The translations under genes and the position numbers were made by a program. Positions 1,425-4,015 of a stretch of 64,000 nucleotides of DNA are shown one piece after another (positions within the stretch are counted from its first letter, which is position 1; each line of letters starts with the position of its first letter). The DNA comes from a virus. Taxonomy: Duplodnaviria; Heunggongvirae; Uroviricota; Caudoviricetes. The notes under the pieces were generated by a model, which ran no database searches, was not told where the DNA came from, and worked only from the letters and a program-made list of their open reading frames with translations. The DNA lies in the IMG/VR virus record IMGVR_UViG_3300011960_000019; one strand, 5' to 3'.

Positions 1425-1544
1425 GCGTCTATGGAGGTTGGTAGTCAGATTGAAAATTCGTGGTTGTATTTGATAGCGACTTTTGGTTTTATGTTTTTCT
1501 TTAGTCGGTTAGTATCTTTTTACCATTCGACTAAGGGAAAAACG

Positions 1545-2414
1545 ATGAGGCTTTACATAATAGGAAACGGATTTGATATTCGACATGGCTTGCCAACAGG
1601 ATACAAGCACTTTAAGTCGTATGTAGCAAAACATGACCAAGAACTATATGACGCGATAGAAGAATACCTGCCTGCTGGAGACGAATGGAACGAGTTAGAA
1701 AGTGCTTTAGGTGCAATTGATTATGAGCTTATCCTTCAAAACAGTGAGATGTTTTTGGCTTCGTACAATACCGATGATTGGAGCGATGCCTATCATCACG
1801 ATTACCAATATGAAGTAGATAAAATCACACGGATGCTGTCAGCTCGCTTGAAGGAGCAATTCGCTGATTGGGTTAAAGGGATTAACATAACCGATGCTTG
1901 CAATTCTGAGCAATACATCCCGCCCATATCAAGAGAAAGCCTCTATTTTTCATTTAATTATACCAATACCTTGCAGCAGATCTATGCCGTTCCAGACGCG
2001 CAAATCATGCATATTCACGGCAATTGTATTTACGATGACGATCTCATACTAGGTCACAGTTTTAGGGTTGAAAAGTCACTAAATCCATATATAGGGCCGG
2101 ATCAAGATACAAGAATAGCAGAGGCATACGACAGCATAGACGAATACTTCGGTAATACATTCAAGCCCAGCGAAAACATAATTAAAGAAGAGAGCGTTTT
2201 TTTCTCGTCGCTTAAAAATGTGGATGAGGTCATTGTTTTAGGCCATTCGCTTGCCGAAGTTGACGGTGAATACTTCGCTGAAATAAATAAAAGCATCCAA
2301 GAAAATGCTCGATGGATAGTTGCTTTATATAGAGGTGAGGAAAAGTCAGGCAGCTTAGAAGATTATGATGTCAGAGACTCAAATATTTCTTACGTGCAGT
2401 ATGAAGATATCTGA
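1545..2414 (+). CDS. AbiH-like abortive-infection family protein
   Basis: N-terminal MRLYIIGNGFDIRHGLPTGYKHF matches the conserved AbiH-family opening (LxIIGNGFDxxHGLxTxY) as I recall it. A strong RBS (AAGGGA) precedes the ATG at 1545, and the frame is also open from 1431. GC is visibly lower than the neighbouring genes. Confidence 0.6.
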   Translation: MRLYIIGNGFDIRHGLPTGYKHFKSYVAKHDQELYDAIEEYLPAGDEWNELESALGAIDYELILQNSEMFLASYNTDDWSDAYHHDYQYEVDKITRMLSARLKEQFADWVKGINITDACNSEQYIPPISRESLYFSFNYTNTLQQIYAVPDAQIMHIHGNCIYDDDLILGHSFRVEKSLNPYIGPDQDTRIAEAYDSIDEYFGNTFKPSENIIKEESVFFSSLKNVDEVIVLGHSLAEVDGEYFAEINKSIQENARWIVALYRGEEKSGSLEDYDVRDSNISYVQYEDI

Positions 2415-2503
2415 ATGAGACTTCACATTATAACTATAATTGTGTAAAAAAATAAGGCTGGCAGTTTGTACCTTAAGAAAAATAGATAAGAGGCAGTTTA
2501 GTT

Positions 2504-3895
2504 ATGATAAATTATACTGACGAATCAACTTTTATTGAAAAATACAAACCGTTTAGAAAATTTTGGACAATTTTATCACCTCATTTTGTATTTCAACTGC
2601 ATTCACTTGCCAAAATGATAAGGGGTGAAGATCCAATTCAAGAACAACCTTCCAATGATGAAATTTTTCTTGAAGAGTATGAAATCTGTCTCAAAAATTG
2701 GAAAGACGCACAGAAACTTATATCTTTTGAGATTATTTTTCGGTTGCGAGATATAAAAAAATTGGAAGTTGAAAAAAAAGATCATCATCGAAACAAGGAT
2801 AAAGAAAAGAAAGAAAAGTGTATTGATGAAATAAATTTAAAAAAATTTGAAATTCTTATTCTTCGCCGTTGTATTGACTCACTAATTTGGAGCATACTTG
2901 ATGAAGATCACTCGAGTTTGCGGCGTTTACCTATTAACACAGGCAATGACAATCTATCAGAAGATAACATAATTGATTCTATGGTCGCAGCCGATCTTAT
3001 CAATCAGGACAAACACGCCGTAGCGATTGTCTCTGACATGAGTACATTTGTTCATGTGGGGGATTTAGTCACCTTTAATCCACTGGATGGCTTTCAACTC
3101 GTGGAAGTTAAAACAGGCAAAAAGAATAATGAGCTTTATGAAGCTGCCGAATTTTCTGTTATCTCAGAGTGTCCGCACTTTGAAGAAAACTTCATTAGCA
3201 ATATGCCTGAAAATGATGTTAAGCAATTTAATCGCATAAAAAGGCAAATCGTTCGTGGTATGAATGTGCTGGAGGCGATTAATACTGGCGAGGGCTTTGA
3301 CAATCTTCATCAATCTAAAGTTAAAATCGATGAGATAGACCATCCATCTGAGTTTTATACCCACCGTTTAGTTAAAATGTGGGAGATTATTCGCGGAGGA
3401 AAAAATTGGGCAATTGATACTATTGATGAATGTTTGTTCTTAGGTATGTACCGTGATTCTGAAATGGGTTTCGTTGCCTTCAATGGATGGATGGATGGCC
3501 TCGATATAAAAAGCCCTGTTGTGAATATAAACGATTCATTCTTTGACCCTTTGTCTCGGCCATTTATGAGTTTGCATCTGCCAACTGAAATGCTCTCCGA
3601 TCTCATGTCGGGACAAATAATCATCGTCATGTGTTTTGACAATGAACTTTTTTTTCACCGTGCTAACAAAGCGTACCCAGGTTTATTTCTCCTTAGCAAT
3701 ACGGCGAGAACAAAACAACCATTAGAAAATATTCTTCATGTTGGTTCGCAAGGGATAGCTTCTTACGTAGATGGGCATACCAGCTTTTTAGGTAATGGTA
3801 TTGAATCCCGAATCCTTTTCGATCAGCAACGACCCGACAACATTATTGAGTGGAGCTATGCTAGAAGCGATCTCAAAAAGCAACATGAAGCTTAA
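2504..3895 (+). CDS. hypothetical 463-aa protein with PD-(D/E)xK-like nuclease core, co-oriented partner of the AbiH-like gene
   Basis: Central segment AVAIVSDMSTFVHVGDLVTFNPLDGFQLVEVKTGKK fits the hhhD...hhhExK pattern. Lys-rich, low GC. RBS agagg upstream. Starts 90 bp after the AbiH-like stop. Confidence 0.45.
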   Translation: MINYTDESTFIEKYKPFRKFWTILSPHFVFQLHSLAKMIRGEDPIQEQPSNDEIFLEEYEICLKNWKDAQKLISFEIIFRLRDIKKLEVEKKDHHRNKDKEKKEKCIDEINLKKFEILILRRCIDSLIWSILDEDHSSLRRLPINTGNDNLSEDNIIDSMVAADLINQDKHAVAIVSDMSTFVHVGDLVTFNPLDGFQLVEVKTGKKNNELYEAAEFSVISECPHFEENFISNMPENDVKQFNRIKRQIVRGMNVLEAINTGEGFDNLHQSKVKIDEIDHPSEFYTHRLVKMWEIIRGGKNWAIDTIDECLFLGMYRDSEMGFVAFNGWMDGLDIKSPVVNINDSFFDPLSRPFMSLHLPTEMLSDLMSGQIIIVMCFDNELFFHRANKAYPGLFLLSNTARTKQPLENILHVGSQGIASYVDGHTSFLGNGIESRILFDQQRPDNIIEWSYARSDLKKQHEA

Positions 3896-4015
3896 GCCGT
3901 TGGATGGGATTTCCCATCCCTAGATGGGGATGTCCAGAACCACAAGCAATAAGTAATTACTTACCTATTATTTACGGGTATAGTTCTTTCAGTGACTCAC
4001 TTGAAAGGACTCAAT

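What the first reader, a model, noticed from the sequence alone, without database searches (positions are those of the whole stretch)
1431..3935. Low-GC two-gene island next to tRNA-Asn: AbiH-like protein plus a 463-aa PD-(D/E)xK-like partner (candidate anti-phage system)
Both genes are conspicuously AT-rich relative to the backbone. The island sits directly after a tRNA and a terminator and is closed by a hairpin at 3902-3919.

Gene 1 opens with MRLYIIGNGFDIRHGLPTGY, the hallmark I associate with the AbiH abortive-infection family.

Gene 2 starts 90 bp downstream, co-oriented. Its centre reads like a PD-(D/E)xK nuclease core: HVGDLVTF...QLVEVKTGKK.

AbiH is generally described as a single-gene system. 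A conserved nuclease-like partner, if real, would be a new two-component architecture. Carriage on a phage-plasmid suggests an inter-phage competition role.
Basis: partly seen in the sequence, partly recalled or inferred. Interest (0 to 1): 0.75.

Follow-up and report, generated by a model that had tools for sequence, protein, structure and literature searches.

The report
AbiH plus unannotated defence-island gene
A small AT-rich cargo block on an SSU5-like phage-plasmid carries a known anti-phage gene (AbiH) next to an unannotated gene that turns up alone or beside other defence genes elsewhere, so the two look like separate neighbours and not one two-part system.

Summary
A low-GC block (window 1508-3917; 37.6% GC against 49.9%) lies between tRNA-Asn and phoH of an SSU5-like phage-plasmid and carries two co-oriented genes.

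Gene 1 (true start 1545, not 1431) is a clear AbiH (PF14253, E = 2e-69). AbiH in SSU5-type phage-plasmids has already been reported.

Gene 2 (2504-3895, 463 aa) is a real, selected gene (dN/dS 0.22). Its family has 678 representative clusters across several phyla and no Pfam, NCBIfam, PHROGs, PADLOC or PDB match.

The proposed obligate two-component system is not supported:
- AbiH occurs alone, intact, at about 94-96% nucleotide identity on Providencia plasmids.
- Gene 2 homologues lie beside AbiH only in the clade at 87% or more protein identity.
- In Pantoea and Erwinia they follow an unrelated Abi gene (PD-T4-5/Abi_2).
- In 14 other sampled lineages no AbiH- or Abi_2-like gene lies nearby; most sit on mobile elements or beside other defence genes (P2-like prophage slots, plasmids, Gabija-like pair, PD-T7-1, PDC-S31).

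Best reading: a mini defence island of two separable systems, with gene 2 a candidate new single-gene defence family.

The parts
1174..1248 (+). tRNA-Asn (GTT). It is a backbone landmark on the left side of the variable cargo slot.
   Evidence: ARAGORN. Rfam tRNA model, 77.5 bits. 98.9% identical to phage SSU5.
1402..1424 (+). Intrinsic terminator (AAAGGGGC-TTCG-GCCCCTTT plus a T-run). It belongs to the backbone and lies upstream of the island border.
   Evidence: Read directly from the sequence. The consensus scan did not flag it.
1508..3917 (+). Mobile low-GC two-gene cargo block (mini defence island).
   Evidence: - One 93.2% identical blastn segment to the E. coli lambdoid-prophage copy spans exactly these coordinates.
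- It is the lowest-GC 2.4-kb stretch of the window, z = -3.4.
- No flanking direct repeats were found at the borders.
1545..2414 (+). abiH: a 289-aa AbiH-family abortive-infection protein. The literature predicts a Sir2-like fold.
   Evidence: - PF14253 E = 2.2e-69, covering profile positions 1-258 of 260.
- PADLOC AbiH 1.6e-28.
- phrog_19951 E = 1.8e-178, aligned from residue 39 of the long ORF.
- dN/dS 0.14-0.24.
- The Sir2 resemblance comes from PMC13064643 and was not tested here.
2415..2503 (+). 89-bp intergenic spacer (29% GC) with an AAGAGG ribosome-binding site. No promoter-like or terminator-like site was detected, so co-transcription is likely.
   Evidence: Homology to the Providencia AbiH-only module ends at about 2418-2421, so the spacer travels with gene 2.
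2504..3895 (+). Gene 2: a 463-aa protein of an unannotated family and a candidate autonomous defence protein.
   Evidence: - No hit in Pfam, PADLOC, NCBIfam, PHROGs or PDB sequences.
- 44 close clusters and 678 representative clusters at E <= 1e-3.
- dN/dS 0.22.
- AF2 full-length model pLDDT 79.6; domain-only model pLDDT 86.7.
2657..2899 (+). Gene 2 residues 52-132: a long antiparallel helical hairpin (coiled-coil-like). This is the lowest-GC part of the gene.
2960..3289 (+). Gene 2 residues 153-262: the candidate PD-(D/E)xK-like core (α-β-β-β-α). Invariant residues are D178 (3035-3037), D187 (3062-3064), E201 (3104-3106), K203 (3110-3112), G205, R244 (3233-3235) and Q248 (3245-3247).
   Evidence: - These residues are invariant in 135 and in 105 sequences and in 42 sequences.
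- The strand order comes from the domain model.
- Fold searches were not confirmatory.
3359..3892 (+). Gene 2 residues 286-463: a C-terminal α/β domain. It has the conserved IDxCLxxGxY motif (G314 and Y316 invariant in the 24-sequence alignment, at least 90% conserved in the 135- and 105-sequence alignments), P353 and P444. Its function is unknown.
   Evidence: This region has the highest model confidence (pLDDT 90-98).
3902..3919 (+). 8-bp-arm hairpin at the right border of the island. It is not followed by a T-run.
   Evidence: Read from the sequence. Homology to the E. coli copy ends inside it, at 3917.
4016..4789 (+). phoH, the backbone gene on the right side of the slot.
   Evidence: The ORF is listed. 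Sister plasmids annotate it as PhoH. The start at 4016 is inferred from the 774-nt RefSeq annotation of L003.

Best explanation
Window 1508-3917 is a horizontally acquired mini defence island sitting in the variable tRNA-Asn/phoH cargo slot of an SSU5-like phage-plasmid. It holds two adjacent, probably co-transcribed, but functionally separable anti-phage genes.

**Gene 1** is an ordinary AbiH. AbiH is a single-gene abortive-infection protein that the literature predicts to be Sir2-like. Inferred step: on infection it depletes NAD+ or otherwise arrests the cell.

**Gene 2** belongs to a widespread, unannotated family of proteins of about 450 aa. I infer that it is an autonomous single-protein defence effector with three parts:
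- an N-terminal helical hairpin, probably for oligomerisation or partner and phage-protein sensing;
- a metal-dependent PD-(D/E)xK-type nuclease centre formed by D178, D187, E201-x-K203, R244 and Q248;
- a C-terminal α/β domain that probably regulates the enzyme or binds the target.

**Shown here:** gene identities, selection on both genes, mobility of the block, invariant residues, variable neighbourhoods, and separability of the two genes.

**Inferred:** the defence function of gene 2, its nuclease chemistry, and co-transcription.

For the phage-plasmid, the block would protect the lysogen, and hence the element itself, from competing phages.
For: **AbiH identity**
-.
- AbiH acts as a single cloned gene in lactococci and in S. 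thermophilus (PMC13064643, PMC12322248).
- It is already listed among SSU5-group phage-plasmid defences (bioRxiv 10.1101/2025.09.12.675607).

**Separability of the two genes**
- More than 20 Providencia plasmids carry AbiH at 94-96% nucleotide identity, with a convergent unrelated gene downstream. Against the window copy, dN/dS is 0.14 and dS is 0.138, no larger than the dS to the paired E. coli copy, 0.175.
- Gene 2 homologues have no AbiH- or Abi_2-like gene nearby, and no conserved partner, in 14 sampled lineages outside the window's clade and the Pantoea/Erwinia clade:
  - two different P2-like prophage slots (L008-11, L019);
  - an Aeromonas island beside an AAA_15/UvrD Gabija-like pair (L012);
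  - a Yersinia island with PD-T7-1 at E = 1e-156 (L014);
  - a Serratia tra region (L016), an IncP-like plasmid (L018) and a small Mob plasmid (L035);
  - a Rahnella plasmid (L033);
  - Morganella (L013), where it follows two unannotated co-oriented genes;
  - Pseudomonas, Albitalea, a spirochaete and Myxococcota, with PDC-S31/DUF2971, Schlafen, NucS-like PDC-S02 or resolvase neighbours;
  - an Opitutaceae locus beside an IS200-type transposase (L028).

- In Pantoea and Erwinia the upstream gene is PD-T4-5/Abi_2, not AbiH.

**The pair moves as one unit within its shallow clade**
- dS is equal for the two genes (0.175 and 0.186), and the pair sits in three element backgrounds.

**The slot is a cargo hotspot**
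- It has at least four states in sister elements, one carrying a Shedu/Cap4-like nuclease protein.
- Only 4 of 834 matching plasmid records carry this block in the slot; a fifth full-length hit, NZ_OL790696, is a mislabelled 4.8-Mb E. coli chromosome.

**A catalytic-type site in gene 2**
- D178, D187, E201, K203, G205, R244 and Q248 are invariant in 135 sequences at 19% mean column identity.
- In the model, D187 opens β2 and ExK sits on β3, after α1-β1.
- SduA_C is the only Pfam family that recurs, weakly.
- The best, non-significant, hhalign alignment to a NucS_C protein puts D...ExK in register.
Against: - No experiment exists for gene 2 or for any family member, and every public source calls them 'hypothetical protein'.
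- Gene 2 has no tblastn match in 50,697 sequenced phage genomes. It therefore looks like cargo of prophages and plasmids and not of characterised phages.
- The 89-bp spacer contains no detected promoter or terminator. The pair is conserved in three backgrounds, and a second lineage has a tight 16-19 bp pairing with a different Abi gene. All three points are also what a cooperative pair would look like.
- The neighbourhood census covers about 17 sampled lineages. It is not a statistical enrichment test.
Confidence: 0.6

Rival explanations
1. This is the first reader's view: AbiH and gene 2 form a true two-component system. AbiH (Sir2-like) and the nuclease-like protein need each other, for example as sensor plus effector or as two effectors under one trigger. 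A broader version holds that gene 2 is a promiscuous add-on that teams up with different Abi effectors: AbiH here, and the HEPN-type PD-T4-5 in Pantoea.
For: - The genes are co-oriented and 89 bp apart, with no promoter-like or terminator-like site between them.
- The pair is kept intact, with equal dS and purifying selection on both genes, in an SSU5-like phage-plasmid, in a Qin-like E. coli prophage (65 of 5,426 complete genomes) and in a third lambdoid background.
- A second gene 2 lineage sits 16-19 bp downstream of a different Abi-type gene.
Against: - AbiH is maintained alone at 94-96% nucleotide identity with dN/dS 0.14.
- AbiH and PD-T4-5 are both described as single-gene systems.
- Gene 2 homologues have no AbiH- or Abi_2-like neighbour in 14 of about 17 sampled lineages.
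- The pairing with AbiH is limited to the clade at 87% or more aa identity; the next lineage out (62% identical) is solo.
Confidence: 0.17
2. Gene 2 is not an anti-phage gene. It is a mobile-element housekeeping or competition function, such as a recombination or DNA-processing nuclease, an entry-exclusion or anti-plasmid factor, or an addiction module. It merely hitch-hikes in cargo slots next to AbiH.
For: - It is found on many mobile-element types: prophages, phage-plasmids, conjugative and mobilisable plasmids, and ICE-like tra regions.
- Recombinases, integrases and transposases are frequent neighbours.
- It is not recognised by any defence database.
Against: - It occupies accessory slots, not core positions, and is absent from most members of each element family. 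Only 4 of 834 matching plasmid records carry it in this slot.
- It is flanked again and again by varied known or candidate defence genes: AbiH, PD-T4-5, PD-T7-1, a Gabija-like pair, PDC-S31, PDC-S02, Schlafen and a reverse transcriptase.
- It also occurs on chromosomes of free-living bacteria from distant phyla.
Confidence: 0.15
3. Gene 2 is a defence or accessory protein but not a nuclease. The invariant D/D/E/K/R/Q cluster would serve another chemistry, such as nucleotide or NAD binding, or hydrolysis of a phosphodiester-like small molecule. Alternatively it would be a structural or ligand-sensing site within a fold that has not been described.
For: - No nuclease profile reaches threshold in any of 105 members.
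- hhalign against three PD-(D/E)xK-type proteins is non-significant.
Against: - The D-x13-ExK spacing and its placement (D at the start of β2, ExK on β3, preceded by α-β) match the canonical nuclease core.
- The only recurring weak Pfam hit is the Shedu nuclease domain.
- PD-(D/E)xK cores are known to be hard to detect when heavily decorated (general knowledge).
Confidence: 0.3

Closest known systems
AbiH (Lactococcus lactis abortive-infection protein; Pfam PF14253; DefenseFinder/PADLOC 'AbiH')
   Same: Gene 1 matches the family profile end to end (E = 2e-69) and has the N-terminal GNGFD motif. It is a single ORF on a mobile element, like lactococcal AbiH on ICEs. AbiH has already been reported in SSU5-group phage-plasmids.
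   Different: Nothing essential differs. This is an enterobacterial variant of 289 aa. In this shallow clade it travels with gene 2, which is not part of any described AbiH system.
Shedu SduA / other single-protein PD-(D/E)xK defence nucleases
   Same: The proposed working principle for gene 2 is the same: one polypeptide with a D...ExK centre plus N-terminal sensing or oligomerisation parts, located in defence islands and mobile-element hotspots. SduA_C is the only Pfam domain that recurs, weakly, in 4 of 105 family members.
   Different: There is no significant sequence or fold match. Gene 2 also has a long helical hairpin and a large conserved C-terminal α/β domain. Membership is not established.
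PD-T4-5 / Abi_2 (AbiD/AbiF-like, HEPN-type) single-gene system
   Same: It occupies, in Pantoea and Erwinia, the position AbiH occupies here: immediately upstream of a gene 2 homologue and co-oriented with it.
   Different: It is unrelated in sequence to both AbiH and gene 2. It is relevant only because it shows that the upstream neighbour of gene 2 is interchangeable.
Defence hotspots of temperate elements (P2/P4 hotspots, Rousset et al.; prophage morons)
   Same: The tRNA-Asn/phoH slot behaves like such a hotspot, with alternative cargo in sister elements that includes a Shedu/Cap4-like nuclease protein. Gene 2 homologues sit in variable slots of P2-like prophages, one of them between genes V and S. 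By my recollection that corresponds to the Z/fun locus, which describes as hypervariable.
   Different: This particular slot in SSU5-like phage-plasmids is not described as a defence hotspot in the papers I could read.

Membership tests
AbiH (PF14253) | Profile match above the curated threshold over the full domain. | tested here: met
   234.9 bits against a cutoff of 30.9, covering profile positions 1-258 of 260. PADLOC AbiH E = 1.6e-28.
AbiH (PF14253) | Single-gene autonomy: the gene occurs and is maintained without a fixed partner. | tested here: met
   It is solo on more than 20 Providencia plasmids at 94-96% nucleotide identity, with dN/dS 0.14.
AbiH (PF14253) | Sir2-like fold / NADase chemistry, and an abortive-infection phenotype. 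| not tested
   The Sir2 resemblance is taken from PMC13064643. A phmmer search against PDB sequences found nothing. The phenotype needs experiments.
PD-(D/E)xK nuclease superfamily (gene 2) | A conserved D ... (D/E)-x-K catalytic motif. | tested here: met
   D187, E201 and K203 (plus D178, R244 and Q248) are invariant in 135 sequences at 19% mean column identity.
PD-(D/E)xK nuclease superfamily (gene 2) | An α-β-β-β-α-β core with D at the start of β2 and ExK on β3. | tested here: inconclusive
   The domain model gives, in its own numbering (full-length residue minus 144), H9-23, E29-32, E44-48, E52-56 and H62-77. D187 (model residue 43) comes just before β2, and E201/K203 (model residues 57/59) lie at the end of β3. 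The coordinates could not be inspected for clustering of the side chains.
PD-(D/E)xK nuclease superfamily (gene 2) | Significant structural or profile similarity to a known member. | tested here: not met
- Foldseek against PDB: best E = 0.32.
- Pfam: SduA_C in only 4 of 105 members, best E = 0.013.
- hhalign against Mrr_cat, NucS_C and Shedu-like proteins: E >= 0.12.
Obligate two-gene AbiH-partner system | The two genes co-occur across the partner's family. | tested here: not met
   AbiH-like ORFs flank gene 2 homologues only in the clade at 87% or more identity. Elsewhere the neighbour is Abi_2/PD-T4-5, there is no neighbour, or the neighbours are unrelated.
Known or candidate defence systems in PADLOC-DB v2.0.0 (gene 2) | A match to any system model. 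| tested here: not met
   No hit for gene 2 or for 10 distant relatives.
Defence-island gene (guilt by association; gene 2) | Recurrent proximity to diverse known defence genes, and location in mobile-element cargo hotspots. | tested here: met
   Neighbours include AbiH, PD-T4-5, PD-T7-1, a Gabija-like pair, PDC-S31 (three times), PDC-S02, Schlafen AlbA_2 and a reverse transcriptase. Locations include P2-like and lambdoid prophage slots. This is a sampled census, not a statistical test.
SSU5-like phage-plasmid (host element) | Backbone nucleotide similarity to SSU5 and its relatives. | tested here: met
   98.9% identity to SSU5 over the tRNA region. 834 related plasmid records, mostly non-mobilisable and about 105-120 kb.

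The most novel reading that the evidence does not exclude
Gene 2 defines a new, widespread family with a fold not represented in the PDB. It acts as a modular companion that can plug into unrelated abortive-infection effectors: the Sir2-like AbiH here, and the HEPN-type PD-T4-5 in Pantoea. It might add a nuclease arm or a phage sensor, while still being able to work alone. That would be a portable 'booster' module, unlike a fixed two-component system.
Probability: 0.15. Interest if true: 0.7.

Novelty: new variant of a known kind. Interest (0 to 1): 0.42.

Why it matters
The AbiH half is routine. The value lies in gene 2.

**What gene 2 offers**
- Its family has 678 representative clusters at 50% identity and spans Pseudomonadota, Bacillota, Spirochaetia, Myxococcota, Acidobacteriota, Opitutaceae and Melioribacter.
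- It has no annotation in Pfam, NCBIfam, PHROGs or PADLOC.
- It has no detectable PDB relative.
- It has a seven-residue invariant site.
- It shows a textbook defence-island and mobile-element-hotspot distribution.

If it is confirmed, it adds one more single-protein anti-phage family, possibly with a new regulatory architecture. It would also mark the tRNA-Asn/phoH slot of clinically common SSU5-like phage-plasmids as a defence-cargo hotspot.

**A methodological point**
Two adjacent, co-transcribed defence genes that move together need not be one system. The neighbourhood test across the partner's whole family settles that question.

Tried and rejected
1. **Family scans of gene 2** against Pfam, PADLOC, NCBIfam and PHROGs gave nothing. 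Scans of 10 distant relatives also gave nothing.
2. **PDB sequence searches** with gene 2 and with a 20-sequence profile found only noise.
5. **hhalign** of the family profile against single Mrr_cat, NucS_C and Shedu-like proteins from fetched loci was non-significant.
The narrower alignment returned only 10 loci.
7. **The 52 partial E. coli hits** were considered as possible independent AbiH-only cases and rejected. The two examined are IS-truncated remnants at the same Qin-like prophage locus beside hokD.
8. **Insertion scars.** I looked for direct repeats at the island borders and found none.
9. **RNA genes.** I looked for RNA genes in or near the island and found only the tRNA.
10. **Literature.** Searches for the E. 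coli orthologue accessions found no paper.
11. **The 1431 start codon** for AbiH was rejected in favour of 1545.
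Full report
**1. The observation**

The window is an SSU5-like phage-plasmid. The tRNA region is 98.9% identical to Salmonella phage SSU5. Window 1100-4100 is 99.9% identical to Enterobacter hormaechei plasmid NZ_CP053193, and 834 related plasmid records match the flanks.

tRNA-Asn(GTT) lies at 1174-1248. A textbook intrinsic terminator can be read at 1402-1424.

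The block is the lowest-GC 2.4-kb stretch of the whole 64-kb window:
- 37.6% GC against 49.9%, z = -3.4.
- GC3 is 0.40 for gene 1, 0.33 for gene 2 and 0.57 for phoH.

The hairpin at 3902-3919 exists but has no T-run after it.
- AbiH almost certainly starts at 1545. That position has a ribosome-binding site, and the Pfam and PHROG profiles and the Providencia RefSeq annotation all begin there.
- Homology to other elements places the mobile block at 1508-3917.

**2. Gene 1**

Gene 1 is AbiH beyond reasonable doubt: PF14253 at E = 2.2e-69 over the whole profile, and PADLOC AbiH at 1.6e-28.

**3. Gene 2**

The 463-aa product matches nothing in Pfam, PADLOC v2, NCBIfam, PHROGs or PDB sequences.

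- A word-indexed search of 5.8 billion proteins found only 44 close clusters, in Enterobacterales and Aeromonas, all named 'hypothetical'.
- An exhaustive profile search of 1.84 billion representatives found 678 clusters at E <= 1e-3 and 501 at E <= 1e-10. Most are full length, at about 450 aa.
- Loci fetched from genomes include Pseudomonas, Albitalea, Spirochaetia, Opitutaceae, Melioribacter, Myxococcota, Acidobacteriota and Dechloromonas. A Bacillus cereus plasmid also carries a copy, annotated as two adjacent ORFs.
- Ten distant members also lack Pfam and PADLOC hits and carry no informative name.

In alignments of 135 and of 105 sequences (mean column identity 19-21%), exactly seven residues are invariant: D178, D187, E201, K203, G205, R244 and Q248.

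The gene is under purifying selection: dN/dS is 0.22 between the phage-plasmid copy and an E. coli prophage copy.

**4. Structure of gene 2**

I re-modelled residues 145-463 with a deeper alignment and obtained pLDDT 86.7. In the model's own numbering (full-length residue minus 144), the order is α1 (9-23), β1 (29-32), β2 (44-48), β3 (52-56), α2 (62-77). D187 (model residue 43) opens β2, and E201-x-K203 (model residues 57-59) sits at the end of β3. This is the canonical PD-(D/E)xK arrangement.

The fold searches did not confirm it:
- Foldseek against the PDB had nothing better than E = 0.32.
- AFDB50 was unavailable.
- hhalign against three nuclease-type proteins was non-significant, although the NucS_C-like alignment put D...ExK in register.
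- Scanning 105 members one by one against Pfam at E <= 1 gave one recurring family: SduA_C, the Shedu nuclease domain, in 4 members with best E = 0.013.

My verdict is that a nuclease centre is the best guess, at roughly 55-60%. Fold membership is not demonstrated.

**5. Is it a two-component system?**

The results are as follows.

| Lineage (identity to gene 2) | Upstream or nearby genes |
|---|---|
| Window clade (87-100%) | AbiH about 88-90 bp upstream. Found in 4 SSU5-like plasmids, in a Qin-like lambdoid prophage beside hokD (65 of 5,426 complete E. coli genomes) and in a third lambdoid background. |
| P0006 (62%) | Solo on a small Mob plasmid |
| Pantoea / Erwinia (53-56%) | 16-19 bp downstream of a PD-T4-5/Abi_2 gene |
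| Rahnella (about 40%) | Solo |
| 485-aa clade (43-50%) | Solo in two different P2-like prophage slots, a Serratia tra region, an IncP-like plasmid, a Yersinia island with PD-T7-1, and an Aeromonas island beside a Gabija-like pair. After two unknown genes in Morganella. |
| Distant homologues | Neighbours are PDC-S31/DUF2971, Schlafen AlbA_2, NucS-like PDC-S02, resolvase, an IS200 transposase and a reverse transcriptase |

A phmmer search with AbiH over all ORFs of all fetched loci found AbiH only in group 1 and in the AbiH-only loci.

In the other direction, more than 20 Providencia plasmids carry AbiH at 94-96% nucleotide identity with a convergent, unrelated gene downstream. Against the window copy, dS is 0.138 and dN/dS is 0.14, so this AbiH is at least as close to the window's copy as the paired E. 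coli one and is maintained without gene 2.

The 52 partial E. coli hits are not AbiH-only acquisitions: the two examined are IS-truncated remnants of the same prophage locus. An obligate pairing is therefore not supported.

Some features do remain compatible with cooperation:
- The two genes show equal dS (0.175 and 0.186).
- No promoter or terminator was detected in the spacer.
- Gene 2 lies directly downstream of an Abi-type gene in two independent lineages.

**6. The slot**

Sister SSU5-like elements hold different cargo between tRNA-Asn and phoH:
- a span of about 0.67 kb;
- a span of about 1.6 kb;
- a span of about 2.0 kb with a 184-aa protein and a 262-aa protein whose N-terminus matches Shedu, Cap4 and PDC-M68A nuclease models;
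- this 2.9-kb version, found in only 4 plasmids.

The slot behaves like a defence-cargo hotspot. No target-site duplication or RNA gene marks the island.

**7. Conclusion**

The most likely reading (about 0.6) is a mini defence island made of two separable systems. One is a known AbiH. The other is a member of an unannotated, widespread family that is itself a candidate single-protein defence effector, probably a nuclease with an N-terminal helical hairpin and a C-terminal regulatory domain.

The rivals are:
- a true cooperative pair, or modular add-on (about 0.17);
- a non-defence mobile-element function for gene 2 (about 0.15);
- cutting across these, a non-nuclease chemistry for gene 2 (about 0.3).

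The novelty lies in gene 2 only. It is a new variant within the well-populated class of defence-island single-gene effectors. Interest is moderate.

Noticed in passing
window 1250-1269 / 1314-1333: A 20-nt inverted repeat, 95% complementary with a 44-nt loop, starts two bases after tRNA-Asn. It could be an RNA-processing or terminator element, or a recombination site for the cargo slot.
   Followed up: no
window 1402-1424: A canonical intrinsic terminator (GGGGC-TTCG-GCCCC plus T6) that the consensus scan missed. It makes the 1431 ATG an implausible start for AbiH.
   Followed up: partly
window 4591-4785 (-): A sub-threshold Rfam match to the antisense sRNA Ysr251 (50.9 bits against a gathering score of 100; E = 2e-11, full model length), antisense to the 3' end of phoH.
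   Followed up: no
L003 1952-3332 (sister plasmid NZ_CP133340), same slot as window 1249-3991: This is alternative cargo in the tRNA-Asn/phoH slot: a 184-aa unknown protein plus a 262-aa protein. The N-terminus of the 262-aa protein matches the PADLOC models PDC-M68A, CBASS effector endonuclease and SduA (E down to 5e-21). The slot has at least four states across SSU5-like elements and looks like a defence hotspot.
   Followed up: partly
P0028-P0043 (for example L008 6001-7458): The 485-aa clade of the gene 2 family ends in a highly basic tail of about 25 residues (KKKRIxKKxAxKKIKEARKRSRK). The window protein lacks this tail. It may be a nucleic-acid-binding tail.
   Followed up: no
P0150, P0159, P0162, P0184 (669-690 aa): Some distant relatives carry an N-terminal extension of about 240 aa that begins GILAYGSLIDDPG...EYAR. 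It has no Pfam hit and suggests that an extra enzymatic or sensor domain has been fused to the family core.
   Followed up: no
L013 3856-5903 (Morganella morganii): Two unannotated, overlapping, co-oriented genes sit directly upstream of the gene 2 homologue. One encodes 367 aa with an LPDY...FVEVKN nuclease-like motif and the other 315 aa. Neither has a Pfam or PADLOC hit. They may be another uncharacterised defence pair.
   Followed up: partly
L024 7664-8899; L025 4159-5106; L033 6761-7516: A DUF2971 / PDC-S31 gene lies within about 0.3-1.5 kb of the gene 2 homologue in three unrelated lineages (Pseudomonas, Albitalea, Rahnella). This could be chance co-location in defence islands or a looser association.
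   Followed up: no
L021, L022 (E. coli Qin-like prophage, beside hokD): In the two of the 52 partial-match E. coli genomes that were examined, the AbiH-gene 2 block has been truncated by IS3 insertions, with an IS1 copy and a group II intron nearby. This shows ongoing decay of the locus in cryptic prophages.
   Followed up: yes
NZ_OL790696.1 (PLSDB record): A 4.8-Mb E. coli chromosome is filed in the plasmid collection as 'plasmid unnamed'. It inflates the plasmid hit counts by one.
   Followed up: no
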